NCBI GenBank assembly: GCA_963767005.1
Contig: CAVYCN010000018.1
Coordinates: forward strand, 1 to 64,000
Origin: an uncultured Actinomycetes bacterium
Lineage (GTDB): Bacteria; Actinomycetota; Thermoleophilia; UBA2241
Direction of reading: 5' to 3'
Length of the DNA stretch: 64,000 bases
In this document: piece after piece, positions 28,580 to 47,239 of the stretch
Numbering within the stretch: the first letter of the stretch is position 1
Layout of the letters: each line of letters opens with the position of its first letter
Notes under the pieces: generated by a model
Databases searched by the model: none
What the model was told of the DNA's origin: nothing
The model's input: only the letters and a program-made list of their open reading frames with translations
Made by a program: the position numbers and the translations under genes

Positions 28580-29680
28580 TCAGCTCGTCGCGCCGGCGAG
28601 CGACCCGGCGGAGCGCGGCTGCGGCGCCTCGAGCGCGGCCAGCACGGCGTCGCCCATCTCCTCGGTCGTCGAGACGCCATCCAGGTCGGGGGTCCGCACG
28701 ACGCCATCGGCCAGCACCCGTTCGATCGCCCGCATGAGCGCCGCGGCCCAGTCGTCGTGCCCGAGGTGCTCGAGCATCATCGCCGTGCTCCACAGCGAGC
28801 CGATCGGGTTGGCCTTGCCCTGACCGGCGATGTCGGGCGCCGATCCGTGGATCGGCTCGAACATCGACGGAAAGGCACGCTCGGGGTTGAGGTTGGCGCT
28901 CGGCGCGAAGCCCATGCCGCCCATGATCGCCGCGCCCAGATCGGTGAGGATGTCGCCGAACAGGTTCGACGCCACGACGACGCCGAAGCGCCCGGGGTCC
29001 ATCACCATGAACATGGCGGCGGCGTCGACCAGCAGGCGCTCTGTGGCCACCGACGGGTAGTCGGCCGCGACCTCGTCGAAGACCTGGTCCCAGAACACGG
29101 CCGAGTAGTTGAGGGCGTTGCCCTTGCTGATGCTCGTCACCGAGCGGCCCTCACGCGCCGCGAGCTCGAACGCCCAGCGGATGACGCGCTCCGTGCCGTG
29201 GCGCGAGAACACCGCGGTCTGCAGGGCGACCTCGCGCGCGCTGCCCTCGTAGAGGCGAGCGCCGACGCCGGCGTACTCGCCCTCGGTGCCCTCGCGCACG
29301 ACGATCATGTCGATGTCGGCCGCGGTGCGACCGGCGAGCGGCGTCTCGATGCCGGCCAGCAGGCGCACGGGGCGCAGGTTGATGTACTGATCGAAGCCCT
29401 GGCGGATGCGCAGCAGCAGCTCGTGCAGGGTGATGTGGTCCTTCACGAGCGGCGAGCCGATCGCACCGAACAGCAGCGCGTCGTAGGAGCTCAGGATCTC
29501 GAGGCCGTCGGGCGGCATCATCTCGCCCGACCGCAGGTAGGCGGTCGCGCTCCAGGGGAACTCATCGAAGGCGAAGCCGAGCCCCGGGTCGAGCGCGGCC
29601 ATGCGCTCGAGGATCTTGCGCGACTCGCGCACGACCTCGGGTCCGACGCCGTCGCCGGGGATGACCGCTATCCTGTCCAT
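28580..29680 (-). CDS. Tartrate dehydrogenase / D-malate dehydrogenase (decarboxylating), DmlA/TtuC-like
   Basis: IPGDGVGPEV, DHITL...FDQYINLRPVRL, NLFGDILTD and PSMFEPIHGSAPDIAG. Confidence 0.85.
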   Translation of the reverse strand: MDRIAVIPGDGVGPEVVRESRKILERMAALDPGLGFAFDEFPWSATAYLRSGEMMPPDGLEILSSYDALLFGAIGSPLVKDHITLHELLLRIRQGFDQYINLRPVRLLAGIETPLAGRTAADIDMIVVREGTEGEYAGVGARLYEGSAREVALQTAVFSRHGTERVIRWAFELAAREGRSVTSISKGNALNYSAVFWDQVFDEVAADYPSVATERLLVDAAAMFMVMDPGRFGVVVASNLFGDILTDLGAAIMGGMGFAPSANLNPERAFPSMFEPIHGSAPDIAGQGKANPIGSLWSTAMMLEHLGHDDWAAALMRAIERVLADGVVRTPDLDGVSTTEEMGDAVLAALEAPQPRSAGSLAGATS

Positions 29681-29691
29681 GCCTCTCTCCT

Positions 29692-30957
29692 TCACGTCGC
29701 GCCCACTGTCGTGAAGCGCGCGGTCGACTCCTTGAGCGCCTCGATCACCGGCATCGGCTTGCCGGAGAGGAACTGCACCATGGCGCCGCCGGCCGTGCAG
29801 ACGTAGTCGAAACGGTCGCCAAGGCCGAAACGGTTGACGGCGCGCACGCTGTCGCCGCCGCCCAGGGCGCTGAAGCCCTTCGTGCCGGCCATCGCGTACC
29901 ACAGCACCTTGGTGCCGAGCTCTGTCTCGGGCTTCTCGAACACCCCGGCCGGACCGTTGGCAAAGACCGTGCCGCAGGCCGCGATCCAGGCGGCGTAGTC
30001 GGCGATCGTGTGAGCGCCGATGTCGACGATCTGCTCGGCGACCGGCAGATCGGCGACGGCCATCTCGCGGCGCGCCCCGCCGGCAACGACGGCGAGGTCG
30101 CTCGGCAGCACGATCTTCTCGCCGTGCTCGGCGAGGATCGTCTGCGATTCGTCGATGAACGGCTCGAGCTGGCTCTGCCTGATGAAGTCGAGCGAGGGCG
30201 CGCCGACATCGACGCCCGCCGCGACCAGCATGACGTTGGCCACGAGCCCGGCGGTGAGCACCCGGTCGACCATGCCGTCGCGCAGGGCGGCGGCCATCAT
30301 CGGGAAGGCCTCCTGGACCTTGGTGCCGCCCAGCAGGAAGACGCAGGGCCGGGCCGGCGCCGCGCGCAGCCGCGCCAGGTTCTCGTACTCGCGCTCGAAC
30401 AGCCGGCCCATGGCCGACGGCAGGAGCTGCTCGAAGCCGACCAGCGTGGGCTGCGAACGGTGGGCCGCGGCGAAGGCGTCGCAGACGTACAGCTCGGCAA
30501 GCGGCGCGAGCTTGCGCACGACCAGCGTCTTCGCCTGGTCCGCGGGGCTCAGCTTGAGCCTGTTCTCGAACAGCGTGAGCTCCTCGCCGCAGTACCTGAC
30601 GTTGTCGAGCAGCAGCACCTCCCCGTCGCCGAGCGCCCGCACCGCGTCGCGGGCGGCCGGCCCGCAGACGTCGTCGATGAAGGCGATAGGGCGGCCCACG
30701 AGCTCGGTCAGCACCGCGGCGTGCGGCTCGGTCGAGGCGTAGTTGTGGTACTCGAGGTCGCCGCCCTGGTGAGCGAGCAGCACCACCCGAGCGCCGCCCT
30801 CGGCGAGCTCACGCACGGTCGGCGCGCAGCCCCGGATACGGGTCGTGTCGGCGAGACCGCCACGCTCCGGGTCGAGCGGCGAGTTGATGTCGACCCGGCA
30901 GAGCACCGTGCGACCGGCGAGCTCGAGGTCGTCGAGCGTGTTGATGCCGTACTTCAT
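29692..30957 (-). CDS. pgk: Phosphoglycerate kinase, archaeal-type, divergent
   Basis: RVDINSP, DAFAAAHRSQPTLVGF, NGPAGVFE and GGGDS; AHQGG replaces the usual (S/A)HxGR. Confidence 0.85.
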   Translation of the reverse strand: MKYGINTLDDLELAGRTVLCRVDINSPLDPERGGLADTTRIRGCAPTVRELAEGGARVVLLAHQGGDLEYHNYASTEPHAAVLTELVGRPIAFIDDVCGPAARDAVRALGDGEVLLLDNVRYCGEELTLFENRLKLSPADQAKTLVVRKLAPLAELYVCDAFAAAHRSQPTLVGFEQLLPSAMGRLFEREYENLARLRAAPARPCVFLLGGTKVQEAFPMMAAALRDGMVDRVLTAGLVANVMLVAAGVDVGAPSLDFIRQSQLEPFIDESQTILAEHGEKIVLPSDLAVVAGGARREMAVADLPVAEQIVDIGAHTIADYAAWIAACGTVFANGPAGVFEKPETELGTKVLWYAMAGTKGFSALGGGDSVRAVNRFGLGDRFDYVCTAGGAMVQFLSGKPMPVIEALKESTARFTTVGAT

Positions 30958-30985
30958 GGCAGGCTCCCGCGGCCGGGCGGCGGCC

Positions 30986-32026
30986 TCAGACCGCCGTCGC
31001 GACGGCCGCGCTCATGCCGAGGTAGCCGTTGGTCAGACTGACGGCCTCGAGGCGGTCGCTCTGCAGCGACAGGGCGGCCCGTACGGCGTCCATGCTCTCG
31101 GGGATGACGACCGCTTCCTGCGGGATGTTGATCGCGAACATGAACTCGCGGCCGCTCTTGGCGATGGTCTCGTCGAAGACGGCGATCTCGTACATGTCGG
31201 CGCGCTTGTGACCGAGGTCGCGCGCGTAGCGGAACAGCGCCGAGTTGGAGTTGAAGCCGTCCGCGATCTTCACGACGCGGATGCGCGGATGCGCGTCGAA
31301 GAGCTCGAGGGCGCGCTCCTTGGTGATGTCGGCCTTGGTCGTCGCGCACACGTTGATGATGTGGCCGTGCGTGGTCGGCACGTGGACGAGCAGGCCGGTG
31401 GCCTCGATGTGCGGCATGATCGTCATGAGGTCGAGCGCCTGGTGGTTGGGCACCGGCTCGACCTGGGCGACGTCGACGAGGCCGCGATGCGTGTCGCCGG
31501 GGTCGGCCACGCGGCGTACGATCGTGACGATCACGCGCTCCACGCCGACCTCGCGGTCAAGGCAGTCGACGGCCCGGATCAGGCCGGTCGTGTTGCAGCT
31601 CGTGAGCTTCAGGTAGTCCTTGCCGACGCCCTTCTCGTAGTTGGCGTAGCCGTGAAAGAAGACGTCGACGATGTCGTTCTTCTCGCCGCCCTGGAAGACG
31701 GCCTTCACGCCGCGCGCCTGGTAGAGCTCCTTGTTCAGCCGGCCCACGCCGCCGGGCGTCGAGTCGAGCACGATGTCGACCTTGCCGAGCAGGTCGTCGA
31801 GCGTGCCCGACACGGGGATGCCGAGGGCGTCGAAGGCCGCCTTCTGCTCGGCCGCGACGACGTACAGCCGGTAGGGCATGCCGCACTCGTGCAGCGCCCT
31901 GATCGCCAGGGTCGGGGCGACGTCGACGACGCCGGCCAGCTCCATGTCGCCCTGCAGCGCGACGCCGTCGGCCAGGCGCTGGCCGATGACCCCGTAGCCC
32001 ACCACCGCCACGTTCGGCTTGCTCAT
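30986..32026 (-). CDS. Type II (archaeal-type) phosphorylating glyceraldehyde-3-phosphate dehydrogenase
   Basis: GYGVIGQRLADGV, FQGGEK, catalytic SCNTTGL, VRRVADP and QEAVVIPESMDAVRA. Confidence 0.88.
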   Translation of the reverse strand: MSKPNVAVVGYGVIGQRLADGVALQGDMELAGVVDVAPTLAIRALHECGMPYRLYVVAAEQKAAFDALGIPVSGTLDDLLGKVDIVLDSTPGGVGRLNKELYQARGVKAVFQGGEKNDIVDVFFHGYANYEKGVGKDYLKLTSCNTTGLIRAVDCLDREVGVERVIVTIVRRVADPGDTHRGLVDVAQVEPVPNHQALDLMTIMPHIEATGLLVHVPTTHGHIINVCATTKADITKERALELFDAHPRIRVVKIADGFNSNSALFRYARDLGHKRADMYEIAVFDETIAKSGREFMFAINIPQEAVVIPESMDAVRAALSLQSDRLEAVSLTNGYLGMSAAVATAV

Positions 32027-32134
32027 GATCTTCTGCTCCTTGCGCTCGAGTTGCTGCGGTGGACCGTGGCGCGCGCCGGCCGCCCTTGGCGGTCGCGCAT
32101 CGCGGTCCACCCGTCACGGAGGGATTCGCTCATC

Positions 32135-32212: not shown

Positions 32213-32221
32213 CACGTCGTC

Positions 32222-33586: not shown

Positions 33587-33618
33587 GGCTCCTCCTCGCT
33601 CTCCTGCCCGGGTCGCCC

Positions 33619-34254
33619 TCAGCGGACGAGCGCCTTGGCGAGATCGACGGCCGCCGCCGCGTTGGCGCCGTAGCCGTCGGCCCCTACCTCATCGACGAAC
33701 GCCTGCGTGACGGGCGCCCCGCCGCAGACCACCTTGACGCTGTCGCGCAGGCCCTCGGCCTGGAGCAGCTTCACCGTGTCGCCCATCTTCGGGATGGTCG
33801 TCGTCAGCAGGCCGCTCATGCCGATGAGGTCGGGCTTGTACTCCTGCACGGCCGCGACGAACTGGGCCGGCGTGATCCCGGTGCCCAGATTGTGCACGGT
33901 GAAGCCGGCCCCCTCGAGCATCATGGCTACGAGGTTCTTGCCGATGTCGTGCACGTCGCCCTCGACCGTGCCGATCACGATCGTGGCGACGGCGCCGCTG
34001 TCGCCCTCGGCAAGGCGCGGCTTGAGGATATCGAGGGCGCCCTGCATGGTGCGCGCGCTGAGCAGAACCTCGGGGATGAACGACTCGCCGGCGCGCATGC
34101 GCTGCCCGACGACGTCCATCCCGGGCAGCAGGCCGCCGTCCAGGATCTCACGGGCGCCGACCCCCTGCTCGAGCAGTTGCCGCGTCAGCTCCTTCGCGCG
34201 CTCGCCGTCACCGGCGATGACCGCCTCTTTCACGTTCTCGTAGGCATCCGCCAT
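33619..34254 (-). CDS. Methyltransferase cognate corrinoid protein (MttC/MtbC-like)
   Basis: FIPEVLLSA cap domain; B12-binding GDVHDIGKNLV, SGLLTTT and GGAP motifs. Confidence 0.93.
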   Translation of the reverse strand: MADAYENVKEAVIAGDGERAKELTRQLLEQGVGAREILDGGLLPGMDVVGQRMRAGESFIPEVLLSARTMQGALDILKPRLAEGDSGAVATIVIGTVEGDVHDIGKNLVAMMLEGAGFTVHNLGTGITPAQFVAAVQEYKPDLIGMSGLLTTTIPKMGDTVKLLQAEGLRDSVKVVCGGAPVTQAFVDEVGADGYGANAAAAVDLAKALVR

Positions 34255-34354: not shown

Positions 34355-35842
34355 CTAGAAGGTCACCGCGGTCGCCTCGACGCCGAGCTCCTTCTCGGTC
34401 TCCTCGACGATCGCGCGCAGGCGCTCGAGCACCCCGGCCGGCAGCGGCGCCGGCTCGTGCGTGGCGAGCAGCCGGCGCGCCTCGGCCGTGGCGCTCGCAT
34501 ACAGGTCGGCGCCGCCGGCGGCGGCCCAGTCGTCGCGTACACGCCGGTCGATCAGCCTCGCCTGCGACTGCGAGCGCATGTGCTTGTACGTACTGTCGAG
34601 GCTCAGGAAGTCGCCCTGCGAGCCGACCTCGTGGATATCGTCGATCATCAGCAGCTCGTCGGTCACCGGGATGCCGCCGATCGTGAACTTGATGAGCCGC
34701 GCGAACTCGCAATCCATGAGCAGCTGACCGTAGTCGAAGGTGACGCCTGACTCGAGCATCCCCAGGCCGTAGATCAGGTTGGCCCCTGCCAACGCTGGAA
34801 GCAGGCCCGTGAGAGTCTTCTCGTGACCGGACTGCGCGTCACCGAGCTTGGCGTCGCCCTACGCACCGGCGACCCAGCTCGGCAGCAGGTAGAAGCGCGC
34901 GAGCTGGGCCACGGCCGCGTTGATCAGGCCGCACTCGGGGCTGCCGACCGAGGCCGAGGCGAGACGCAGGTCCATGGCCGTCGTCGAGCTGCCGTAGACC
35001 ACCGGCGCGCCGCGCCGAGTGAGCTGGGCCAGGGTGATGCCCGACAGCACCTCGGCGTTGTGGGTGACGAGCGTGCCCGACAGCGAGACCGGCGACGAGG
35101 CGCCCGCCATCGCCATGCTCAGCACGTTCACCGTGCTGCCGCTGCGGGCCGCGCCCATGATGATCTCGCAGCAGTCCTTCACCAGCTTGAGCGGGCTGAC
35201 CGGGCAGGTGATGAACGACACGAGCGGGCGGCGCCGCAGGGCGGCCGCGCCGCCCACGACCGCGGCCGCCATCTCGACGACGCGCTCGAGCAGGTGGCCG
35301 TTGATCGGGCCGATGAAGACGTGCTTGGTCGTGTTGGCGAAGATCGCCTCGGCGTTGTGCAGCGGCACCGCGTCCTGCGGCACGTCGTGCGCGCCGATCG
35401 GGCGCTCGACCACGTCGATCTCGGGCAGCGCGTCGATCAACCGGGTCGCCTCGGCGACGTCGCGCTTGGTCGGCTCGCGCAGCGCGCCGGTCTCGGGGTC
35501 GGTGACCTTGATGCCCTCGCCGAAGTTGGTGAAGCCGACGCGGCCCGGCTCGAGCACGATGTCGTTCTCGGGCACGCGCCCGCAGAGCGTGATGGACGAC
35601 GGCGCGCTGCGCACGGCGTCCTCGACCAGGTGGGCCGGCAGGCGCACGATGCGGGCGTCGCGCTCGACGTCGGCGCCGCCCGCCTCGAAGAGGTCGAGCG
35701 CGGCGTCGTCCTCGACCCACACGCCCGTCCGCCCCAGCACCTCGAGCGTCGCCAGGTGGATGTCCTGGATCTCGTCGTCGGTGAAGACGTTCAGGCTGAG
35801 CCCGCCAGACGCCTTGTGCCCGGCGTGCGGGTTCCTTCTCAT
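34355..35842 (-). CDS. mttB: Pyrrolysine-containing trimethylamine methyltransferase MttB homolog (in-frame TAG at 34859-34861, codon 328; 495 aa)
   Basis: ORF 34859..35842 continues in frame into 34355..34792, reading LPSWVAGA-(TAG)-GDAKLGDAQSGHEKTLTGLLPALAGANLIYGLGMLE, which is the MttB Pyl context. Confidence 0.9.
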
Positions 35843-35971: not shown

Positions 35972-37405
35972 CTAGTGCTCCCGTCCGTGGTCCAGCGCCG
36001 GCTCACGCACCAGGCCGGTCTTGCGCTTGAGCCGTTCCACACAGTTGATCCTGATGTCGAGCAGCTCGGCGATGCGGGCCTTGGCCTCGAGGCCCTTGGC
36101 CACACCCGGCACGGCGGTCACCGTGCCGATGTCGAGCTCCTCGCGCAGGGTGCGCATGAGGGTCGAGTCGGACAGGTCGGACACGCCGACCCCGAGCTTG
36201 TCGGCCACGTATGCCTTCGCCTCGGGGAGCCTCATCTTTCTGAGCTGCATCCTGGCCACCAGATCTCCAGCGGTCTTGATGCCGCCGATCGACGAGGCAA
36301 GCGCGTGCGCCATGCCCATGCCGTTCGGGTCGCCGGTACCCACCTATAACCCGTCGGCGCGGCCGATCTCGACCATCGCCGCGCTGGCTCGCGTGACCAT
36401 GTCGATGGGCGAGACCTCGAACATGGGCACGCCGCCGACGCCGTTGCCGACGTTCGGGTGGATCGGGATCGTCGCCTCGGCGGTGCAGGCCTGCACGAAG
36501 GTCACCGCGCGCGCCACGTTCCAGGCGCACGACTTCTTCGAGTTGTTGTTGACGACCGGCCCGAAGATGGCGGCGCCGGCCTTCTCGACGACCTTCACCT
36601 GCTGGTGCGGCCAGAGGCCGGCCAGGCGCGTGCCGTCGTACTCGAGCTCGCCGTGGAAGCCGAGCACGTTCTCGGCCGCCATGCCGATCTGGACGGCCAT
36701 GTCGGTGGTGCTCGAGATGTGCTCGCAGGCGCGCAGGGTGGCGAGGAACTCGGCGTCGCCGGTCGAGGCCACCGTGTCGTAGTTGATGCCGTCGGCGGCC
36801 ACCTCGACCATGCGCTCGGACAGCCAGATGGTGTCGGCCTGGCAGACCTCGAGCGCCTCCTCCTGCGTGCGCCGTGCCTCGTCGATCTTGCCCAGCGGCA
36901 GCAGGTCGGACGGGTTCTCGAACGAGCCGTCGGGCCGGTAGTAGAGGCCGAGGTTCGGCATGAAGCCGTAGAGCAGCGGCAGGATGGTGATGTGCTGGAG
37001 CAGCTCCATGTGCTCCTGCTCGACCGTAGCGATGAACTTGCAGGGCTTCACGGAGTAGTCGAGGTGACCGACCTCCATCGAGTCGAAGGCGAAGGCGGTC
37101 TCGAACAGGCGGATCGCCTGCTCGCGGCTGATCGGCGCGGCGATGCCGCTCGACAGGCGCGACGAGCAGAGCGTGTTGACCGAGCCGTCCTTGCTCATGA
37201 CCGCCTCGTGGCCCCGCTCCACGCCCCAGATCCGCTGAGGGCTGGCGAACATGTCCTCGAGGTAGTCGAGCTCGTTCTCGCAGAGCGGCGGCATCTTGCC
37301 CCTCGCGGCGGCTGCCTCCGTGCCCTCGACGAGGTCGCGACGCAGGTCGTCACGACTCATCTGCACGGTGGCGCCGTCCCCCATGCGCGTCGTGATGGTG
37401 CTCAC
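35972..37405 (-). CDS. mtbB: Pyrrolysine-containing dimethylamine methyltransferase MtbB homolog (in-frame TAG at 36344-36346, codon 354; 477 aa)
   Basis: N-terminal TRMGDG and [12 protein letters not shown]. It reads [10 protein letters not shown]-(TAG)-VGTGDPNGM...[13 protein letters not shown]...[12 protein letters not shown], matching the MtbB Pyl context. GTG start with a GGAGG RBS. Confidence 0.9.
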
Positions 37406-37502: not shown

Positions 37503-37531
37503 ATGCTATCCCACCCAGGTGGATAACACAA
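37503..37531 (-). promoter_or_regulatory. mtbB operon promoter with a CCACC-N2-GGTGG operator in the spacer
   Basis: Minus strand TTGTGT-17 nt-TAGCAT; the spacer contains ATCCACCTGGGTGG. Confidence 0.65.
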
Positions 37532-38297: not shown

Positions 38298-39742
38298 GAC
38301 GTCGCCGCGATCGCCGCGTCCGTCACGGCGCAGATCTCGCGCAGGGCGGCGAGCTGGTCGTCGCTCAGGTGCGGGGCGCGGCCGGCCCGCGCGGCGAGGA
38401 CCTCCTCGACGCGCGCGACGGCCGCATCGAGCTCGGTCGTGCCCTCGGCGCGCCAGGCGTCGTAAGGCAGACGCGAGGCGACACGCGGCATGAAGTGCAC
38501 ACCGTTCCTGATCGCCTGGCGCGTGTCCTTCTCCTTCAAGAAGTTGCCGCCGATGCCCACGCGCTCCATCATATCGCGGGCGATGGTCGCCGGGCTGATC
38601 TCGATCTCGCCGAGCAGCCGGCGGATCATCGCCACGATCTCGGCATCGACCACGATCTGCGGCAGGTAGAGCGTGTTGACCGAGTCGATCAGGCCCATGC
38701 CACCGCTCAGCAGGTCGGAGCCGGCCGCCACCGTGACGAAGGCCTTGAGCGCCTTCTCGAAGCCGTCCTGCACGCCGAGATGCTTGGCGTCGGTGCCGAG
38801 GCCCGGCGTCGTGACCGGCAGGCCGAGGTCGTGCAGCACCTCGGTGAAGGCCGCGTCGTACAGGGCCCCCTCGAGGGCGCCGTAGCAGATGCTCGTCGAG
38901 CGCATGTCGAGGATGGTGCCGGACGGACCGCAGATCAGGCGCGCGCCGGGCGACAGCACCTGCAGGGCGGCGCAGGCGCCGAGCAGCTCGGCCAGGCCCT
39001 GGACGACCACGCCGGCCAGCGTGGCGGGCGCCGTCGCGCCCGAGATCGGCACGGTGTAGATCTCGATCGGTGTGCCGTGGTCGGCCAGGCGCGCGTGCAC
39101 GTCGAGCAGGCGACCGTCGAGCGACAGCGGCGAGGCCACCGTGAACAGGGTGCTGATCCGGGGCCGCCGGCGAAACTCCTCGAGGCTGCCGCAGAGCACC
39201 TCGGCGATCGCCAGCACGAGCTCGACCTCGCTCGGGCAGTCGACGAAGGTGACGTGCTTGTCGGTCTCGGTGAGGACCGTGTAGTACTCGATCTTCTCGC
39301 GCGCTTCGAGCGCCACGTCGTTGGCCGTCACCGTGGTCCACTGCACGTCGAGCTCGGGCGTCTCGTCGAGCAGGATCGTGGCCTCGCGCAGGTCGCGCAG
39401 GGTCGAGGGGCGGTGCTCGCCGCTACGGTAGTCGAGCGTGAGCGCGGCGCAGCCGGAGGGCGAGAAGCGCGACCTGCCGCCCTCGCGCAGCACGACGTCG
39501 TGCTCGGGCGTGGCGCCGCCCAGCACGATCTCGCGCGGGCACTGCCGGCGCAGCCGATCGACGAGCTCTGCCGGGAACCGCACGACGCCGGTCTCGTCGT
39601 CGACCGCCGCGCCGGCCTCGCGCAGCCGCGCCAGGTGCCGGGTACCGGCCATCCTCAGACCGACCCGCTCGAGCAAGGCGAGCGCCTCCTCGTAGACGAG
39701 GTGCTTCTCGGCGTCGCTCATCCAGGTCGTGCGGGCTTGCAT
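38294..39742 (-). CDS. Non-pyrrolysine MttB-superfamily corrinoid methyltransferase
   Basis: VASPL and SGATAPATLAG; Gly at the Pyl-equivalent site (LPVTTPGL-G-TDAK). Confidence 0.88.
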   Translation of the reverse strand: MQARTTWMSDAEKHLVYEEALALLERVGLRMAGTRHLARLREAGAAVDDETGVVRFPAELVDRLRRQCPREIVLGGATPEHDVVLREGGRSRFSPSGCAALTLDYRSGEHRPSTLRDLREATILLDETPELDVQWTTVTANDVALEAREKIEYYTVLTETDKHVTFVDCPSEVELVLAIAEVLCGSLEEFRRRPRISTLFTVASPLSLDGRLLDVHARLADHGTPIEIYTVPISGATAPATLAGVVVQGLAELLGACAALQVLSPGARLICGPSGTILDMRSTSICYGALEGALYDAAFTEVLHDLGLPVTTPGLGTDAKHLGVQDGFEKALKAFVTVAAGSDLLSGGMGLIDSVNTLYLPQIVVDAEIVAMIRRLLGEIEISPATIARDMMERVGIGGNFLKEKDTRQAIRNGVHFMPRVASRLPYDAWRAEGTTELDAAVARVEEVLAARAGRAPHLSDDQLAALREICAVTDAAIAATS

Positions 39743-39755: not shown

Positions 39756-41585
39756 TCAGTGCCGCTTGCCGGTCCCCGGACCGTCGCCGCGCCCCGCGGC
39801 CGGGATCACCGGCAGGACCAGGTGCGAAGCGTGGCGGTGGTCGTGCCGGACGGTCTGTCGGGCCGCGCGGCGACGAGCGTCGGTGCCCGCCGGTCGGCCC
39901 GTGTTCAGGTTGCGGTCGTAGCGGCCGAAATCGCTGCTCGAGACCTCGAGCCGCAGGCTGTGTCGCCGGCCGAAGAGGTGACCCGTGGCCGCCATGTCGA
40001 CCGTGAGCCGCAGCACCTCTTCGCCATCGTATCGCGTGGTGTCGCGCTGCTCGAGCGCGCCGAGGCGCGCGATGCCCTCCTGCACGAGCTGGGCGTGGCC
40101 GTCGGGGAACACGTCGACGAGGGCCGCCGTGAAGTCGGTATCGGGCGCCGACGACGCGACGTGCAGCTCGCACGAAAGCGGACCGACGACCTCGAGCTCC
40201 TCGTCGAGCGGCGCCGTCGTGTAGACGAGCACGTCGGGCCGCGTCTCGAGCGGCCGTCGGTCGTCGAGTGCGGTCGCCATGTCCCAGATGCTGCGCGTGA
40301 GCCAGTAGTCGACCGGTCGCTCGGGGTCGTACACGAACGCGTCGGGCGGCTCGTCTCCGGGGGGCTCGGCGCTGAGGCCGCCGCCGACGCCGCCGGCCCG
40401 GCCGTCCCCGCGCAGGTACAGACGCAGCGGCTCGGCGGCCGGCAAAGGCCAGCCGTCGGCCGTGCGCCAGCGGTCGGCGCCGACCACGTAGACCTGCACG
40501 GTCGGATCGTCCTCGACGCCGTTGCGCACGCCCCGCAGCCAGCGCTCGAAGAAGCGCTCCTCGCGGTCGTAGCACCAGGCGTCGCGGTCGACCGGGATGC
40601 GGCCGACGTGCCCGGTCACGAGCGTGCTCAGGCCGTGGTCGGTCGGTCCGAGCACGAGCTGCTGCACCGTCGCCGTGGCGGTGTGCCGGGCGCTCGCCGC
40701 GGTCCAGGCGGCGAGCGAGGCGTCGAGGAACACGTCGTACCAGCCGCTCCAGTGCAGGCCGGGCACGGCGATCGGTGCCCGCGACAGGTCGCGCTCCTGC
40801 CACCACTCGTCGCGACGCGGGTGGTGCACGAGGTCCTTGAAGGCCGGGCTGCAGGTGCCCGCGGCCTCGTCCATCGTCTCGACGGGCAGGTGCCAGGGAT
40901 CGAAGCGAAAGGAGTTGAGCAGCGCCCGGGCGTTCATCTCGTAGGCCCACTCGCCGATGCCGAGCAGCGAGAAAGCGCCGCCGTGGTAGGCCGCCCGATA
41001 GAAGTCGGGCGCGGTGTCGCCGGGCGCCACGCAGCGCAGGTTGGGGTGGCCGCTCGCGGCGACGGCCCACTGCGTGATGCCGTGGTACGACTCGCCGGCC
41101 ATGCCCACGTCGCCGTTGCACCAGGGCTGGGCGGCGACCCAGTCAAGCGTGTCCCAGCCGTCGGCGGCCTCGTGCACGAGCGGCTCCCAGCGCCCGCCCG
41201 AGCCGTACTTGCCGCGCACGTCCTGCACGACGCAGCGGTAGCCCTTCCGCGCCCAGTAGGCGCCGCGGGCGTGCATATAGGGATGGTCGTCGCGGCCGTA
41301 GGGCTGGCGGATGAGCACCACCGGCAGCGGCCCGGCCGCGCCGCTGGGATGGAACACGTGGGCCCGCAACGCGACGCCGTCGCGCATCGGCACGGCGACG
41401 TCGCGCTCCACGCGGTGGCCGGCGAAACGGTCGGGCGTGCGCGTCGGCGTGACCGCACGGGGCACGACGCAGCGCCGGCGGTAGGCCTGGGCGCAGCGGC
41501 GGCCGGACCAGCGCAGCTCGGCCGTCGCTCGCGCCGCCCAGTGTCGCGCGCTCACGCCCGCCGCCTCGATGCCGAGAGCCGCCAC
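39756..41585 (-). CDS. CocE/NonD family serine hydrolase
   Basis: PMRDG, RQPYG, QDVRG, nucleophile GESYHG, GWYD and RYDRNLNTG; start uncertain. Confidence 0.9.
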   Translation of the reverse strand: MAALGIEAAGVSARHWAARATAELRWSGRRCAQAYRRRCVVPRAVTPTRTPDRFAGHRVERDVAVPMRDGVALRAHVFHPSGAAGPLPVVLIRQPYGRDDHPYMHARGAYWARKGYRCVVQDVRGKYGSGGRWEPLVHEAADGWDTLDWVAAQPWCNGDVGMAGESYHGITQWAVAASGHPNLRCVAPGDTAPDFYRAAYHGGAFSLLGIGEWAYEMNARALLNSFRFDPWHLPVETMDEAAGTCSPAFKDLVHHPRRDEWWQERDLSRAPIAVPGLHWSGWYDVFLDASLAAWTAASARHTATATVQQLVLGPTDHGLSTLVTGHVGRIPVDRDAWCYDREERFFERWLRGVRNGVEDDPTVQVYVVGADRWRTADGWPLPAAEPLRLYLRGDGRAGGVGGGLSAEPPGDEPPDAFVYDPERPVDYWLTRSIWDMATALDDRRPLETRPDVLVYTTAPLDEELEVVGPLSCELHVASSAPDTDFTAALVDVFPDGHAQLVQEGIARLGALEQRDTTRYDGEEVLRLTVDMAATGHLFGRRHSLRLEVSSSDFGRYDRNLNTGRPAGTDARRRAARQTVRHDHRHASHLVLPVIPAAGRGDGPGTGKRH

Positions 41586-41591: not shown

Positions 41592-43372
<1,781 letters not shown>

Positions 43373-43376
<4 letters not shown>

Positions 43377-44305
43377 CTCGCACCTGTGTCCCTGTCGATG
43401 CCGATCATCGCCCGTGAGACGCCGTCGGTCACGAGATTGGTGCCGATGGTGAGCAGCGCGATCATCAGAACGGGCACGAACACCGCCCACGGCTGCACGA
43501 TGATGGCGACCCGGTTCTCGTTGATCATGAGGCCCCAGTCGGCGGCCGGCGGCTGCATGCCGAAGCCGAGGAAGCTGAGGGCCGCGATCAGTCCGATCGA
43601 ATAGGTGAGGCGCAGGCCGAACTCGACGAGCAGCGGGCTCGTGATGTTCGGCAGGATCTCACCGACCAGGATCCTGCGGCGCGGCACGCCGAGCGCCTCG
43701 GAGGCGCGCACGAAGTCGCGGCCCACGATCTCGAGCGTGGCGCCGCGGGCGACGCGGGCGATGCGCGGCGCGTGCGTGATCGCCGTCGCCAGGACCAGCA
43801 GCCAGAGCGCGTGACCGAGCACCGAGACGAGCAGCAGGACGAACACGATCTGGGGAAAGGCGAGCAGCACGTCGAGCAGGCGCATGATGACGTCGTCGAC
43901 AGCCGCTCGCGAGTAGCCGGCCAGCAGCCCCAGGCCGACGCCCAGGACCATGGCGAGCACCGTGGCGATCACCGAAAGGCCGATCACCGTGCGACCGCCA
44001 CAGAGCACCCTGCTCAGCACGTCGCGGCCGATGCCGTCGGTGCCGAGCAACGCCTTGGCGGAGGGGCCCGAGTAGTCGGGGGCTATGCCGGTGGCAAACG
44101 GCGAGTGCGGTGCCACGTACGGCCCGATCAGGGCGACGGCGACGATCACCACGACGATGCCGAGGCCGACCCTGGTGCGGCCGAACCTGAGCGAGGCGAC
44201 GAGCATGCCGACCCACTCCCGTCTCCGACGAGTCGGCTGCGCATCGGGCGGCGCCTCGCCGGTGCCGGGGAGAAGCTCCTGGGTGTCTGGCGTGACGGCG
44301 CTCAT
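43373..44305 (-). CDS. ABC transporter permease (DppC/OppC-like)
   Basis: LLGTDGIGRDVLSR, EAA-like loop and LSFLGFG. Confidence 0.92.
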
Positions 44306-45267
44306 CGCAGACCGGTCCTGAGTCGCGGGCTGACGAGGATGGTGAGGATGTCGGCGGCGAGGTTGGCCACGACGTAGACACCGGCGATCAGCAGCGCGAT
44401 CGCCTGGATGACGGGGATGTCGCGGTTGACCACGGCATCGACGAAGCCGGCGCCGATGCCGGGGTAGTTGAAGACCCACTCGACGACCACGACGCCACCG
44501 GCAAGCCAGGCGAGCTGCAGGGCCGAGACCTGGATGGCCGGGATCACCGCGTTGGGCAGGGCGTGCCGCGACATGACGGTGCGCTCGGGCATGCCCTTGA
44601 GACGAGCCATCTGCACGTAGTCGCTCTCGAGCACCTCGATCATCGAGGCGCGCAGGATGCGGCTGATGTACGGCGCCACCGCCAGGACGAGGGTGGCCAC
44701 CGGCAGCACGAGCAGGTTGAGTTGGCTCCAGATCGAGGCGTTCGGGTCGATCCGCGACACCCCCGGCATGACGTGGAGCACGTTGGTGGCCAGGAAGAAG
44801 AGCAGCAGCATGGCGATGACGAACTCGGGCATCGCCGCCAGGGCGAGCGAGCCCACCGAGGTCGTGAGGTCGAACAGCGAGTCGCGCCATAGGGCGGCGA
44901 GCGAGCCGATCAGGATCGAGACCGGGATGCTCACGATGGCCGCGAAGAGCACGAGCAGCGCCGAGTTCGTGACGCGCGATCTCAGGAGCGACGTGACCGA
45001 CACACCCGATGCCGTCGAGGTGCCGAGATTCCCCGAGGCGATGTCCTTGAGCCAGATGCCGTACTGGACGTAGCGCGGCCGGTTCAGGTGGAGCTGCAGG
45101 CGCAGCGCGTTGTACATCGCCTTGTCGGCGGCCTGCTTGCCGAGGATCGCCCGCGCGGGATCGCCCGGCAGCGCCTGCGTCGCGGCGAAGATGACGACCG
45201 AGACCAGGAACAGCGTGAGGACGCCCAGGGCAAGCCGGCGAAGGATGAGTTTCAACAGCGGTGGCAC
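44302..45267 (-). CDS. ABC transporter permease (DppB/OppB-like)
   Basis: LPGDPA, DYVQMARLKG, HALPNA and VEWVFNYPGIG. Confidence 0.92.
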   Translation of the reverse strand: MPPLLKLILRRLALGVLTLFLVSVVIFAATQALPGDPARAILGKQAADKAMYNALRLQLHLNRPRYVQYGIWLKDIASGNLGTSTASGVSVTSLLRSRVTNSALLVLFAAIVSIPVSILIGSLAALWRDSLFDLTTSVGSLALAAMPEFVIAMLLLFFLATNVLHVMPGVSRIDPNASIWSQLNLLVLPVATLVLAVAPYISRILRASMIEVLESDYVQMARLKGMPERTVMSRHALPNAVIPAIQVSALQLAWLAGGVVVVEWVFNYPGIGAGFVDAVVNRDIPVIQAIALLIAGVYVVANLAADILTILVSPRLRTGLR

Positions 45268-45294
45268 GCCGCTCCCCCCTTCGATAGCGGGACC

Positions 45295-45335
45295 GCCCCG
45301 GCGCCCCGGCCCGTGGCGGGCCGGGGCGCCGGGGC
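45295..45335. repeat. 18-bp GC hairpin after the solute-binding protein gene (mRNA stabiliser or attenuator)
   Basis: GCCCCGGCGCCCCGGCCC/GGGCCGGGGCGCCGGGGC. Confidence 0.6.
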
Positions 45336-45355
45336 TCGCGCCCCTTCAGCTTCGA

Positions 45356-46966
45356 TCAGACGAAGTAGAACTTGTTGAAGTGGAAGCTCGAGAGCGGCAC
45401 GCCGCCCTTGTCGGGCACGACGCCGCCGAGCTTGGCGCTGAAGGCGTCGGTCTGGTCGTTGAACGCCCAGACAATGAGGCCGCCCCGCTCCTGCTCGATG
45501 GTCTGCGCCTCGCCGACGAGCTGGTCGCGCGCGGTCTTGTCGCCGGTCTTGAATGCCTGCTGCACGACCTTGAGCCACTGGGCATCCTTCCAGTGGGTCT
45601 CGTTGAACGGTGCGGTCGGCAGCGTGCCCTGGGCGGTCTGAGCCAGGTAGTTGCGGGTGTACCAGAAATCCTGGGCAAAGGGCCAGGTGAGGTACTGGTT
45701 GCCGTAGAAGATGCTGGCGTCGACCTTGTTCACGTCGACCGTGACACCGGCCGCCTTGGCCTGCTGAGCAAAGACCTGGGCGGCGAGGACGGCCGAGCCA
45801 CCGACCGCGTCGGACGTGGTCAGGGTGACCTTGAGGTCGTTGTTGTAGCCCGCCTGGCTGAGCAGCGACTTGGCCTTCTCGATGTCCTGCACGCGCTGCT
45901 GCAGTTGCGGCGTGCCGGGGTCGAACGGCGCGTACATGTCGTTGCCGGCCCAGCCGTAGCTGTTGTAGGCCTGCGAGATCATCGCCTGGCGGTCGATCAT
46001 CAGGCGGAATGCCTGACGTACGCGCACGTCGTTGAAGGGCTTGACGTCCATGCGCATGGTGAAGGGCTGCCAGGCGCCGGTGTGGGCGTCGAGCACCTTC
46101 ATGCCCTGGGCCTGGACGACCTTGACCTGCGAGCTCGGCAGGTCGGAGATCGCGTCGACGTTGCCGCCCAGCAGGGCGTTCACGCGGGCCGTCGGGTCGC
46201 CGAACTCGATGATCGTGAGCTGGTCGACGTGCGGCGCCTCGCCCCAGTACTCCTTGTTGGCCGCGAAGACGATCTGCTGGCCGGGCGAGAAGCTGCTGAG
46301 CTTGAAGGGGCCGGTGCCTATGGGCTGCTTCGGGTTGAAGCTCTGCGGCACGATGGTGTTGCCGTAGACGGCCATCGCCTCGTCGAAGACGGAGTTCGGC
46401 GCGTCGAGGGTGAACTGCACCGTGCTCGCGTCGACCTTCCTGATGCCGCTCGCTTTGAGTGCCGCGAGCTGAGTGGCACCCATCTTCGGGTTCTTGGGGT
46501 CGATGATGCGCTTGTAGCTGTAGACCACGTCGTCGGCCGTCATCGGCGTGCCGTCGTGGAAGACGACGCCGCTGCGCAGCTTGACGGTCCAAACCGTGGC
46601 GTCGGTGTTCGGCGTGACCTCCTCGGCCAGGAGGTTCACCAGCTTGTAGTCCTGGTCCCAGCCGAGCAGCGCGTCGTAGAGCTGGAACGTGATGGCGATC
46701 TCGGGCTCGGTCGTGGCGAGCTGGCCGTCGAGGTGCTCGTTCGCCGAGCCGCCGACGATGCCGATCCGCAGGTTGCCGCCCTGCTTCGGCGTCGCCGAGC
46801 TCGACGCGCTCGAGCCCGAGCTGCTGCTCGTGTTGCTGCCGCACGCGGCGAGCACCGAGGCGAGACTGACGCCGGCCCCCGCAACCAGGGCCCCCTTCAG
46901 CACGTCGCGCCGGGTGTACTTCGCGTCCGTGAAGTTGAGCGGGAACGAACGGTCTGCTCCGTCCAC
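45356..46966 (-). CDS. ABC transporter family-5 solute-binding lipoprotein with Tat signal
   Basis: TRRDVLKG twin-arginine motif and LAAC lipobox; FHDGTPMTADDV, GTGPF and DVRVRQAF. Confidence 0.92.
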   Translation of the reverse strand: MDGADRSFPLNFTDAKYTRRDVLKGALVAGAGVSLASVLAACGSNTSSSSGSSASSSATPKQGGNLRIGIVGGSANEHLDGQLATTEPEIAITFQLYDALLGWDQDYKLVNLLAEEVTPNTDATVWTVKLRSGVVFHDGTPMTADDVVYSYKRIIDPKNPKMGATQLAALKASGIRKVDASTVQFTLDAPNSVFDEAMAVYGNTIVPQSFNPKQPIGTGPFKLSSFSPGQQIVFAANKEYWGEAPHVDQLTIIEFGDPTARVNALLGGNVDAISDLPSSQVKVVQAQGMKVLDAHTGAWQPFTMRMDVKPFNDVRVRQAFRLMIDRQAMISQAYNSYGWAGNDMYAPFDPGTPQLQQRVQDIEKAKSLLSQAGYNNDLKVTLTTSDAVGGSAVLAAQVFAQQAKAAGVTVDVNKVDASIFYGNQYLTWPFAQDFWYTRNYLAQTAQGTLPTAPFNETHWKDAQWLKVVQQAFKTGDKTARDQLVGEAQTIEQERGGLIVWAFNDQTDAFSAKLGGVVPDKGGVPLSSFHFNKFYFV

Positions 46967-47131
46967 TGCGCACTCCCCCCTATCCTGACTTGACGTCGTC
47001 GTCGAGCCCGAGCCTGCAACCGGCGAGGCCACGGTCAGCGAGGCGAGACGTCCACGCGACCCCGTCGGCCGCAGGTCCGGCCCCGGCCCCGGGACGATGA
47101 GCCCCGGGCAACTGCCGGACCCTGCGGATTC

Positions 47132-47239
47132 ATCCACCTGGGTGGTTTGACGAATGCTATCAGCGCCGGCGGCGTTGTCAATACCGTCGTGACGAGCGAG
47201 CTATCCTATGCCGGAATGGCCTCTCCACCTGTGTGGGAT
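47132..47239 (-). promoter_or_regulatory. ABC-operon promoter flanked by two copies of the CCACC-N2-GGTGG operator
   Basis: Minus strand TTGACA (47176-47181)-16 nt-TAGCAT (47154-47159). ATCCACCTGGGTGG lies at 47132-47145 and TCCACCTGTGTGGGAT at 47224-47239. Confidence 0.7.

What the first reader, a model, noticed from the sequence alone, without database searches (positions are those of the whole stretch)
28580..47239. Candidate complete anaerobic pathway for a carnitine-like quaternary amine: triple demethylation with pyrrolysine enzymes, then ATP-yielding repurposed GAPDH/PGK
Seen: all genes are on one strand in two units that share an operator-like motif. Unit 1 is SBP-permeases-ATPase, CocE hydrolase, non-Pyl MttB and TetR. 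Unit 2 is Pyl-MtbB, Pyl-MttB, corrinoid protein, class III aminotransferase, type II GAPDH, PGK and D-malate/tartrate dehydrogenase. There is no monomethylamine methyltransferase (MtmB). Established: non-Pyl MttB enzymes demethylate quaternary amines (glycine betaine, carnitine, proline betaine). Pyl-MttB acts on a tertiary amine and Pyl-MtbB on a secondary amine. Aerobic CntAB carnitine catabolism passes through malic semialdehyde and D-malate dehydrogenase. Inference: (acyl)carnitine -> norcarnitine -> N-methyl-GABOB -> 4-amino-3-hydroxybutyrate -> malic semialdehyde -> malyl-phosphate -> D-malate + ATP -> pyruvate. Malic semialdehyde is glyceraldehyde-3-phosphate with a carboxylate in place of the phosphate. 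This would explain both the missing MtmB and the glycolytic paralogs, and would mean Pyl enzymes acting on substituted amines without TMA release. The substrate identity is a hypothesis.
Basis: partly seen in the sequence, partly recalled or inferred. Interest (0 to 1): 0.93.

Follow-up and report, generated by a model that had tools for sequence, protein, structure and literature searches.

The report
Pyrrolysine regulon for carnitine-type amine breakdown
A soil actinobacterium keeps three methyl-removing enzymes (two with the rare amino acid pyrrolysine) under one shared DNA switch with an aminotransferase and spare, altered copies of two glycolytic enzymes; together they likely strip a carnitine-type amine bare and burn its backbone to D-malate while making ATP, which would give pyrrolysine enzymes substrates beyond simple methylamines.

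Summary
The 14 genes, both amber codons and the operator are real. The lower half of the reading is well supported. In 80 genomic loci of this GAPDH-II clade, 40 carry a malate-racemase-type LarA and 10 a tartrate/D-malate dehydrogenase, never both. The partner PGK lacks phosphate-binding Arg65 in 71 of 71 copies. Inositol-plus-transketolase contexts point independently to D-malic semialdehyde. The scan reached this lower-module reading before on other DNA.

This locus adds the upper link. The 12-bp operator occurs only twice in the genome, both here. In relatives it precedes this MtbB clade (21 of 22) and the aminotransferase, even in rearranged or split loci. Pyl-MtbB is in 33 of 36 family genomes, Pyl-type MtmB in 1 of 36; this genome has one elsewhere.

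Against carnitine itself: the non-Pyl MttB lacks Arg312, which characterised betaine demethylases keep, and the importer is a peptide-type ABC system. Nothing is shown biochemically. My odds: lower module about 0.8, Pyl enzymes on substituted amines about 0.65, whole carnitine route about 0.5.

The parts
47154..47181 (-). sigma-70-like promoter of unit 1 (TTGACA-16-TAGCAT)
   Evidence: the only promoter-like site in 27500-47400 (shuffles give 0.7, so weak on its own); 9 bases upstream of the operator
47134..47145 (.). operator 1, 12-bp palindrome CCACCYRGGTGG, just downstream of the -10 box (repressor-type position, inferred)
   Evidence: in 16 of 23 SBP upstream regions of relatives and this window (8 of the 23 loci were fetched because they carry the motif)
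45356..46966 (-). family-5 (peptide/opine/nickel-type) solute-binding lipoprotein; ligand unknown
   Evidence: PF00496 280 bits; nearest solved structures are peptide, opine and nickel binders
44302..45267 (-). ABC permease (OppB-like)
43373..44305 (-). ABC permease (OppC-like), overlaps both neighbours by 4 bases
41592..43376 (-). double ABC ATPase
39756..41585 (-). CocE/NonD serine hydrolase (start codon uncertain); likely frees the amine from an ester or amide
   Evidence: TIGR00976 402 bits; nucleophile, acid and histidine motifs align with cocaine esterase 3ida (residue roles recalled)
38294..39742 (-). non-pyrrolysine MttB-family methyltransferase; predicted first demethylation; lacks MtgB Arg312/His348
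   Evidence: residue roles from PMC13080624
37581..38276 (-). TetR/BetI-like regulator; likely binder of the operator
   Evidence: the operator precedes the orthologue in 8 of 20 loci (5 of the 8 were fetched because of the motif)
37511..37522 (.). operator 2, directly upstream of a TAGCAT -10-like box of unit 2
35972..37405 (-). MtbB with in-frame TAG (36344-36346) for pyrrolysine; predicted third demethylation (secondary to primary amine)
   Evidence: TIGR02368 497.7 bits; one of 8 TAG-bearing paralogues; tree
34355..35842 (-). MttB with in-frame TAG (34859-34861) at Pyl334; predicted second demethylation (tertiary to secondary amine)
   Evidence: TIGR02369 714.7 bits; G110, M249 and Y364 kept; clade-specific Glu-Arg at the end of barrel strand 2
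33619..34254 (-). corrinoid (B12-binding) methyl carrier
   Evidence: PF02310 and PF02607
32222..33586 (-). class III omega-aminotransferase; predicted to turn 4-amino-3-hydroxybutyrate into malic semialdehyde
   Evidence: PF00202; nearest structures are putrescine and omega-amine transaminases
30986..32026 (-). archaeal-type (type II) GAPDH paralogue; predicted phosphorylating malic-semialdehyde dehydrogenase
   Evidence: contexts
29692..30957 (-). archaeal-type PGK paralogue lacking Arg65; predicted malyl-phosphate:ADP phosphotransferase
   Evidence: Arg65 role from PMC7729029
28580..29680 (-). tartrate / D-malate dehydrogenase (decarboxylating); stands where many relatives have a LarAH6-type malate racemase
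   Evidence: TIGR02089 476.3 > 470.4; best PDB hit 3flk
27761..28378 (+). AsnC/Lrp regulator, convergent here and divergent from the SBP gene in many relatives; probably part of the system

Best explanation
The 14 genes form two same-strand units that share one operator and likely encode an oxygen-independent route that removes all three N-methyl groups from L-carnitine (or an ester of it) and then oxidises the backbone with ATP gain. Shown: gene content, both amber codons at the pyrrolysine position, the pyrrolysine machinery, the operator and its conservation, the neighbours and the residue changes. Inferred steps: ABC import; CocE hydrolysis; non-Pyl MttB (quaternary to tertiary), Pyl-MttB (tertiary to secondary) and Pyl-MtbB (secondary to primary), each loading the corrinoid protein, with methyl groups passed to tetrahydrofolate by genes elsewhere. 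Then transamination of (R)-4-amino-3-hydroxybutyrate to (R)-malic semialdehyde; GAPDH-II makes malyl-phosphate and NADH; PGK makes D-malate and ATP; the dehydrogenase makes pyruvate, CO2 and NADH. The pyruvate could serve as amino acceptor of the transaminase. Step odds: lower module about 0.8; Pyl enzymes acting on substituted amines about 0.65; carnitine backbone as entry compound given both, about 0.75.
For: (1) Extra copies: a housekeeping gap-pgk-tpi-gpmI operon lies on C2. (2) Of 80 GTDB loci of the GAPDH-II clade, 75 have PGK, 40 a LarA homologue and 10 a tartrate/D-malate dehydrogenase; none has both sinks. 38 of the 40 LarA proteins rank the LarAH6 malate-racemase model first, 15 above its cut-off; the 2 others are truncated. 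This genome has no LarAH6 (best 245 of 500 bits) and has the dehydrogenase instead. (3) 7 of 80 loci join iolD with a split transketolase, and all 8 iolD loci have one of the two sinks. No IolC kinase or IolJ aldolase was found among 36 of 46 unassigned ORFs scanned from nine such loci. Transketolase cleavage of 5-dehydro-2-deoxy-D-gluconate would give (R)-malic semialdehyde, the same isomer L-carnitine gives (my chemical reasoning). (4) 0 of 71 clade PGKs have Arg or Lys at position 65, while the 2-hydroxyl binders Asp23/Asn25 and Arg122/Arg170 are kept; the housekeeping PGK has Arg65. (5) An aldehyde:ferredoxin oxidoreductase takes the GAPDH/PGK slot between aminotransferase and racemase in L094 and L096. 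(6) The operator precedes this MtbB clade in 26 of 27 distinct upstream regions (21 of 22 without loci fetched by the motif) against 1 of 13 for other paralogues. It precedes the aminotransferase in 24 of 38, in at least four gene orders and in a genome where the halves lie about 79 kb apart. (7) In 36 family genomes, MtbB clade (75% or more) and GAPDH-II: both 12, MtbB only 1, GAPDH only 4, neither 19 (kin are not independent). (8) Pyl-MtbB is in 33 of 36 family genomes with up to 12 copies, Pyl-type MtmB in 1 of 36. (9) The sister MtbB paralogue sits beside two choline/ethanolamine kinases, and another beside a CoA-transferase, acyl-CoA dehydrogenase and ETF. (10) No CutC in the genome.
Against: No activity, expression or ligand data. 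The non-Pyl MttB and all 21 orthologues shown at 52% identity or more lack MtgB Arg312 and His348, whereas PMC13080624 reports Arg312 conserved in MtcB, MtyB, MtpB and MthB. The binding protein is peptide-type and the genome has no BCCT carrier. CocE is in only 2 of the 18 close GAPDH loci, and known acylcarnitine hydrolases are not described as CocE in the passages read. Only 2 of those 18 loci hold MtbB and Pyl-MttB within 10 kb. The aminotransferase is wider spread than GAPDH-II (27 versus 16 of 36) and is often orphan, so it may be a general omega-transaminase. The Pyl-MttB passes the trimethylamine-methyltransferase equivalog cut-off and keeps all named catalytic residues. This genome does have a Pyl-MtmB. 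The actinobacterial LarA neighbours score 458-481, just under the 500 cut-off. One clade MtbB (L201) has no operator.
Confidence: 0.5

Rival explanations
1. Same logic and same lower route, but the entry compound is not free or O-acyl carnitine. It is another N-methylated compound with a C4 hydroxy backbone and no free carboxylate at the first step, such as a carboxyl ester, amide or lactam that CocE opens, or a hydroxylated diamine.
For: The non-Pyl MttB clade has no Arg312/His348 and no basic residue in the barrel-end motifs inspected. The importer is peptide-type. The aminotransferase is nearest to putrescine/polyamine enzymes. Its 54% paralogue on C6 sits with sugar-kinase and short-chain dehydrogenase genes.
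Against: I know no abundant natural compound of this kind (own knowledge). A carboxylate can be held by other residues, and the Pyl-MttB clade has a conserved Arg at strand 2.
Confidence: 0.2
2. The Pyl enzymes are ordinary TMA and DMA methyltransferases, co-regulated with a separate module that oxidises malic semialdehyde from 4-amino-3-hydroxybutyrate or another source.
For: Family scores and catalytic residues are canonical. All characterised Pyl methyltransferases act on methylamines (PMC9768040), and PMC10805028 reads actinobacterial Pyl mttB/mtbB this way. mtmB is also apart from mttB/mtbB in Methanosarcina (recalled), and this genome has one.
Against: No TMA-releasing gene is in the locus and there is no CutC in the genome. 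Eight MtbB and seven Pyl-MttB paralogues at 47-72% identity with different strand-end residues and different neighbours are hard to explain with two substrates. Only this MtbB clade carries the operator. Pyl-type MtmB is in 1 of 36 relatives.
Confidence: 0.14
3. The substrate is gamma-butyrobetaine: triple demethylation to GABA, transamination to succinic semialdehyde, then GAPDH-II/PGK to succinate and ATP, with a 4-hydroxybutyrate/crotonyl-CoA branch for redox balance.
For: An iron alcohol dehydrogenase, a CoA-transferase, an HpaB/AbfD-fold dehydratase and glutamate dehydrogenase lie just downstream in 8 close loci, one with the dehydratase broken (the AbfD label is recalled from the fold). 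MtyB takes both gamma-butyrobetaine and carnitine (PMC8604678).
Against: It leaves the malate racemase or D-malate dehydrogenase unexplained (50 of 80 loci). PGK keeps the 2-hydroxyl binders. In this genome those four genes are unlinked on C6 and have no perfect operator. Both substrates could share the route.
Confidence: 0.12
4. GAPDH-II and PGK are ordinary glycolytic or gluconeogenic duplicates that happen to lie beside methyltransferase genes.
For: Both pass their family cut-offs and keep the catalytic Cys motif (79 of 79) and most of the basic patch.
Against: A full housekeeping operon exists. Arg65 is lost in 71 of 71. No triosephosphate isomerase or other lower-glycolysis gene is among the recurring neighbours, while D-malate enzymes are.
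Confidence: 0.03

Closest known systems
Aerobic L-carnitine pathway of Acinetobacter baumannii (CntAB, malic semialdehyde dehydrogenase, decarboxylating D-malate dehydrogenase; PMC11353897)
   Same: Predicted intermediates malic semialdehyde and D-malate; final beta-decarboxylating dehydrogenase to pyruvate.
   Different: No oxygenase and no TMA release in this locus. Nitrogen would leave by transamination after three demethylations. The aldehyde would be oxidised through an acyl-phosphate with ATP gain, not by a non-phosphorylating dehydrogenase.
MtcB / MtyB systems of Eubacterium limosum and MtgB of Desulfitobacterium hafniense (non-Pyl MttB quaternary-amine demethylases; PMC8604678, PMC13080624)
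   Same: Non-Pyl MttB plus corrinoid protein; a methyl-THF transferase-like gene and a corrinoid activator exist elsewhere in the genome.
   Different: E. limosum removes one methyl only and the product's fate is stated as unknown. The enzyme here lacks Arg312/His348 and is a distant homologue of MtgB (138 bits). The locus adds two Pyl enzymes and a backbone pathway.
Methanosarcina MttB/MttC and MtbB/MtbC pyrrolysine methylamine methyltransferases (PDB 7xcl; PMC9842639)
   Same: Amber codon at Pyl334, G110/M249/Y364 kept, equivalog scores above cut-off.
   Different: One of 7 Pyl-MttB and 8 Pyl-MtbB diverged paralogues; strand-2 Glu-Arg in place of Ser-Leu; co-regulated with a transaminase and a C4 acid pathway; Pyl-type MtmB nearly absent from the family.
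Complete demethylation of choline to ethanolamine by Methanococcoides strains (as reviewed in PMC7374477)
   Same: Whole-cell precedent that a quaternary amine can lose all three methyl groups without C-N cleavage, through di- and monomethyl intermediates.
   Different: The passages read name no enzymes for the later steps; the backbone is an end product there, while here it would be fermented.
Archaeal type II GAPDH plus PGK (PDB 2czc, 1cf2, 2cun)
   Same: Fold families, catalytic Cys motif, acyl-phosphate chemistry.
   Different: Bacterial clade with His-His changed to His-Gln in GAPDH (79 of 79) and Arg/Lys65 lost in PGK (71 of 71); paired with D-malate enzymes rather than glycolysis.

Membership tests
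Pyl-MttB trimethylamine methyltransferase (TIGR02369) | equivalog score above cut-off and amber codon at Pyl334 | tested here: met
   714.7 > 525; alignment to 7xcm/7xcl
Pyl-MttB trimethylamine methyltransferase (TIGR02369) | Gly110, Met249, Tyr364 | tested here: met
Pyl-MttB trimethylamine methyltransferase (TIGR02369) | trimethylamine is the substrate | not testable with these tools
   needs an assay; context argues for a substituted amine
Pyl-MtbB dimethylamine methyltransferase (TIGR02368) | score above cut-off with one in-frame TAG | tested here: met
   497.7 > 369.1
Pyl-MtbB dimethylamine methyltransferase (TIGR02368) | dimethylamine is the substrate | not testable with these tools
   needs an assay
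Pyrrolysine-decoding organism | tRNA-Pyl, PylS and pylBCD in the genome | tested here: met
   tRNA-Pyl C3:242986-243058; PylS C-terminal domain 298 > 178; three adjacent ORFs read as pylB/C/D and one as pylSn by recalled motifs only
MtcB/MtyB/MtgB acidic quaternary-amine demethylases | MttB-superfamily member without pyrrolysine | tested here: met
   PF06253 235 bits, open frame
MtcB/MtyB/MtgB acidic quaternary-amine demethylases | Arg312 (and usually His348) binding the acidic group | tested here: not met
   Thr and Gly at these columns in a pairwise alignment to 9yce; no Arg or His in 21 orthologues; rule from PMC13080624. MtcB/MtyB sequences themselves were not available
Archaeal-type (type II) phosphorylating GAPDH | family score and catalytic Ser-Cys-Asn-Thr motif | tested here: met
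   TIGR01546 299.3 > 232.9; 79 of 79
Archaeal-type (type II) phosphorylating GAPDH | His-His pair seen in the solved archaeal enzymes (anion-site role recalled, not checked) | tested here: not met
   His-His in the 3 alignments shown; His-Gln in 79 of 79 clade members
Phosphoglycerate kinase | basic patch Arg65, Arg122, Arg170, His62 for the 3-phosphate | tested here: not met
   Arg65 absent in 71 of 71, the other three kept; roles from PMC7729029; archaeal 2cun has Lys
Phosphoglycerate kinase | Asp23 and Asn25 for the 2-hydroxyl | tested here: met
   69 of 71, 2 not covered by the alignment
Tartrate / D-malate dehydrogenase (TIGR02089) | equivalog score above cut-off | tested here: met
   476.3 > 470.4, narrowly; NF006048 459 < 501
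Tartrate / D-malate dehydrogenase (TIGR02089) | D-malate preferred over tartrate | not testable with these tools
   the family holds generalists and specialists (PMC11353897 section 3.12)
Acinetobacter-type carnitine pathway | CntAB Rieske oxygenase and non-phosphorylating semialdehyde dehydrogenase in the locus | tested here: not met
   none among the locus genes; the genome was not searched for CntA
Complete methylamine (TMA-DMA-MMA) system | Pyl-MtmB present | tested here: inconclusive
   present in this genome, unlinked; not found at E <= 1e-120 in 35 of 36 family genomes searched, several incomplete

The most novel reading that the evidence does not exclude
In this Thermoleophilia family, pyrrolysine methyltransferases have radiated into substrate-specific demethylases for substituted tertiary and secondary amines. 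This regulon is a complete TMA-free fermentation of carnitine, in which Pyl-MttB and Pyl-MtbB finish what a non-Pyl MttB starts and a natural malyl-phosphate route makes ATP. Sister paralogues would do the same for N-methylethanolamine phosphates and CoA-activated betaine backbones.
Probability: 0.5. Interest if true: 0.9.

Novelty: new variant of a known kind. Interest (0 to 1): 0.78.

Why it matters
Pyrrolysine methyltransferases are described as specific for mono-, di- and trimethylamine, and metagenome studies count mttB/mtbB amber genes as TMA/DMA use (PMC9768040, PMC10805028; passages read). If these enzymes act on norcarnitine-type amines, that rule and those inventories need revision. 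It would also answer what happens to norcarnitine, whose fate PMC8604678 calls unknown, and give a route that consumes carnitine without making TMA. The lower module would be a natural substrate-level phosphorylation built from glycolytic paralogues, spread over many phyla and apparently also used in an unreported inositol route. The locus supplies a short, assayable enzyme list for all of this.

Tried and rejected
1. 'MtmB is missing from the genome': rejected for this genome, but Pyl-type MtmB was found in only 1 of 36 relatives.
2. 'GAPDH/PGK are the only glycolytic copies': rejected.
3. Amber codons as pseudogene stops or re-initiation: rejected; position matches Pyl334, all 150 listed MtbB hits in relatives carry 1 TAG, and the machinery is present.
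4. Expression: no RNA holder listed; no evidence either way.
5. Structure prediction: not obtained; pocket arguments rest on alignments only.
6. Metagenome scan with a clostridial GabT-like aminotransferase (L085): no relative found. A 73-genome class search around L029 gave 3 GAPDH-II hits; the two fetched (L203, L204) have PGK, the dehydrogenase and a corrinoid gene, with no MtbB or MttB in the stretch. So I found no copy of the full upper pathway outside this family.
7. Betaine-reductase search (PF07355) rang nowhere, controls included: inconclusive.
8. Many operator matches in relatives fall inside unrelated genes and are chance; the reversed-pattern control gives 0-3 per genome. Only upstream sites were counted.
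9. No acetyl-CoA synthase domain found: the host is probably not an acetogen. Formate-THF ligase and hydrogenase genes in the window suggest methyl oxidation (inferred).
10. Two papers were not held, so the GAPDH anion-site roles and growth of M. barkeri on ethyldimethylamine are not verified and carry no weight. Supplements were not read; alignments in the supplements of PMC13080624 and PMC8604678 bear on the Arg312 test.
11. Literature searches for this route: 0 papers; 0; 3 listed, none on further demethylation by listing; 1 unrelated; 39 listed; the relevant ones are aerobic carnitine work and an engineered malyl-phosphate route. The library lacks most subscription papers.

Full report
Observation. 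The window is contig C18:1-64000 of a 3.44 Mb, 71% GC genome rated 100% complete. Its closest named relatives are mostly Thermoleophilia or unassigned Actinomycetes MAGs. MtbB and MttB each have one in-frame TAG. Read through, they pass the TIGR02368 and TIGR02369 cut-offs, and the MttB codon aligns with Pyl334 of M. barkeri MttB with G110, M249 and Y364 kept. The genome has tRNA-Pyl, PylS and adjacent pylB/C/D-like genes, one methyl-THF:corrinoid transferase-like gene, one corrinoid activator and formate-THF ligase. No acetyl-CoA synthase domain was found. The palindrome CCACCYRGGTGG lies upstream of both units, beside -10-like boxes, and nowhere else in the genome as a perfect match.

The lower module. 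A housekeeping gap-pgk-tpi-gpmI operon lies on C2, so the type II GAPDH and archaeal-type PGK are extra. 75 have PGK; 18 close actinobacterial loci have the aminotransferase directly upstream. 40 have a LarA homologue, 10 a tartrate/D-malate dehydrogenase, none both; 14 have malic enzyme, 13 of them with LarA. Of 57 loci with at least 5 kb downstream, 42 have one of the two sinks and 15 have neither. 38 of 40 LarA proteins rank the LarAH6 malate-racemase model first; 15 exceed its cut-off, and the full-length actinobacterial ones score 458-481 against 500. LarAH6/Mar2 is a measured malate racemase (PMC7583248, PMC11770544; passages). This genome lacks LarAH6 and has the dehydrogenase in the same slot. 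Two unrelated enzymes whose shared substrate is D-malate thus alternate behind the pair.

Which aldehyde. Eight loci carry iolD; seven of them also have a split transketolase and all eight have a D-malate sink. iolB, iolE and iolG are there too. No IolC or IolJ turned up among 36 of 46 unassigned ORFs scanned from nine loci. Transketolase removal of two carbons from 5-dehydro-2-deoxy-D-gluconate leaves (R)-3-hydroxy-4-oxobutanoate. L-carnitine gives the same isomer, with the handedness of D-glyceraldehyde-3-phosphate (my reasoning from standard chemistry). D-malate as the product of carnitine-derived malic semialdehyde is shown in A. baumannii (PMC11353897, abstract and section 3.12). The PGK fits: Arg65, one of three arginines on the 3-phosphate (PMC7729029 passage), is Gly, Ser or Asp in 71 of 71 clade members, while Asp23, Asn25, His62, Arg122 and Arg170 stay; the housekeeping copy has Arg. 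In two relatives an aldehyde:ferredoxin oxidoreductase fills the slot between aminotransferase and racemase, and in a third it follows the aminotransferase, so the aminotransferase product is most likely an aldehyde bound for malate. GabT-like aminotransferases only 26-31% identical lie next to or near the pair in a clostridial and an Atribacterota locus. Earlier notes of this scan reached the same lower-module reading on other DNA; I had stated it before opening them, and they are not independent evidence.

Are the Pyl enzymes part of it? Adjacency alone is weak: only 2 of the 18 close loci hold mtbB and Pyl-mttB within 10 kb. The operator is stronger. It lies within 400 bases upstream of this MtbB clade in 26 of 27 distinct regions (21 of 22 after dropping five loci fetched by the motif), against 1 of 13 for hits under 75% identity. 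It lies upstream of the aminotransferase in 24 of 38 (21 of 35), against 0 of 14 for other class III enzymes. Six of the 14 aminotransferases without it follow mttB or the corrinoid gene directly; eight have no methyltransferase beside them in the stretch read. The link holds in different orders: the window's; aminotransferase-gap-pgk-larA-tetR-operator-mtbB-mttB (L014, L107); pgk-dehydrogenase-operator-tetR-operator-mtbB (L185); cocE-mttB-operator-AOR-tetR-operator-mtbB (L174); and halves about 79 kb apart, each with operators (L198, L199). Among 36 family genomes the MtbB clade and GAPDH-II occur together in 12, apart in 5 and in neither in 19; two of the GAPDH-only genomes have a frameshifted clade mtbB in the locus. 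Kin are not independent, so this is descriptive. TetR is the likely binder, since the operator precedes it in 8 of 20 loci; AsnC is the alternative.

Why substituted amines. An omega-aminotransferase needs a primary amine. One non-Pyl MttB, one Pyl-MttB and one Pyl-MtbB are what turns a quaternary amine into a primary one. No TMA-releasing gene is in the locus and no CutC is in the genome (CntA not searched; the betaine-reductase search was inconclusive). The genome has 8 TAG-bearing MtbB and 7 TAG-bearing among 36 MttB-family hits. The same triad recurs on C3, C6 and C11 with other neighbours, and the sister MtbB on C2 lies beside two choline/ethanolamine kinases. Strand-end residues differ between Pyl-MttB paralogues; this clade has Glu-Arg where M. 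barkeri has Ser-Leu, though I could not test whether that is common in bacterial TMA enzymes. Pyl-MtbB is in 33 of 36 family genomes but Pyl-type MtmB in 1 of 36. Whole-cell precedent exists: Methanococcoides demethylate choline to ethanolamine (review PMC7374477, passage). E. limosum stops after one methyl (PMC8604678, passages).

What counts against carnitine. The non-Pyl MttB has Thr and Gly where MtgB has Arg312 and His348, and none of 21 orthologues restores them; Arg312 is reported conserved in all characterised members (PMC13080624, passages). Its 120 best homologues include no characterised protein by name. The importer is family 5 and the genome has no BCCT. CocE is patchy, and the acylcarnitine-hydrolase paper does not mention CocE (PMC13631058, passages). 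Some relatives keep the aminotransferase alone, or with mttB and the dehydrogenase but without gap-pgk. A 4-hydroxybutyrate-type cluster beside 8 relatives' loci keeps gamma-butyrobetaine open. So the C4 hydroxy backbone is well argued from below, and the entry compound is not.

Comparison and novelty. It works like a fusion of the MtcB-type first step, the methanogen MttB/MtbB steps and the A. baumannii lower route, with an ATP-yielding aldehyde oxidation in place of the aldehyde dehydrogenase. By sequence the two amber genes are members of their families. The non-Pyl MttB fails the Arg312 test for the MtcB/MtgB group, and the PGK fails the full basic-patch test. Pyl mttB/mtbB in wetland Actinobacteriota are already reported and read as TMA/DMA-specific (PMC10805028, passage); PMC9768040 notes that bacterial Pyl-MttB roles are open (passage). 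PMC12155760 (passages) and PMC13044021 (abstract and Discussion) were read for background. My searches found no paper on this route, within a library that lacks most subscription journals.

Verdict. A real, conserved regulon. Lower module about 0.8; Pyl enzymes on substituted amines about 0.65; the whole carnitine route about 0.5. New variant of known kinds, with a directly testable claim about what pyrrolysine enzymes do. Interest 0.78.

Noticed in passing
L042, L055, L056, L060, L064, L069, L086 (also L063, L084): Inositol genes (iolG/E/D/B) with a split transketolase, the GAPDH-II/PGK pair and malate racemase, malic enzyme or D-malate dehydrogenase, without IolC/IolJ among the ORFs scanned: a candidate unreported inositol route through malic semialdehyde.
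   Followed up: partly
L031, L033, L049, L071, L078, L089, L040, L062, L059: The GAPDH-II/PGK pair lies beside E1-alpha/E1-beta (often E2, E3 and lipoate genes) of a 2-oxoacid or acetoin dehydrogenase complex; possibly another way of releasing the same aldehyde.
   Followed up: no
G000 C2:292604-306558 (L191): Sister Pyl-MtbB (71%) among two choline/ethanolamine kinases and three amino-acid permeases; candidate N-methylethanolamine-phosphate demethylase.
   Followed up: partly
G000 C3:148071-162333 (L192), C6:52866-70845 (L193), C11:74800-81576 (L194): Three more non-Pyl MttB + Pyl-MttB + Pyl-MtbB triads, with a CoA-transferase/acyl-CoA dehydrogenase/ETF set, a sugar-kinase/FAD-oxidase/ETF set, and an amino-acid permease respectively.
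   Followed up: partly
family-wide: Pyl-MtbB expanded to 1-12 copies per genome in 33 of 36 family genomes, while Pyl-type MtmB was found in 1 of 36.
   Followed up: partly
G000 C3:80398-82497: The genome's only TAG-bearing MtmB and its corrinoid gene lie a few kb from phage-like ORFs (judged from N-terminal sequences only); may be a recent arrival.
   Followed up: no
window 17991-20616: Another non-Pyl MttB directly behind a mandelate-racemase/enolase-family gene; resembles betaine-racemase plus demethylase pairs (recalled).
   Followed up: no
window 113-7719 and 48598-61319: [FeFe] hydrogenase with maturase-like genes, and a HypFCDE + NiFe hydrogenase + HdrABC-like cluster; likely electron outlets for methyl oxidation.
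   Followed up: partly
L101, L103, L105, L106: Same-genus genomes retain remnants (mttB-aminotransferase-dehydrogenase, mttB-aminotransferase, or aminotransferase alone); three of the four lie beside the same glycosyltransferase gene as the window, suggesting stepwise loss.
   Followed up: partly
G000 C3:99265-101998 versus C2:538150 and C6:197657: A second type I gap and a second gdh with the same scores as other copies lie together on C3; may be an assembly duplicate.
   Followed up: no
window 61844-63066: tRNA-Thr followed by a phage-integrase gene: start of an integrated element.
   Followed up: no
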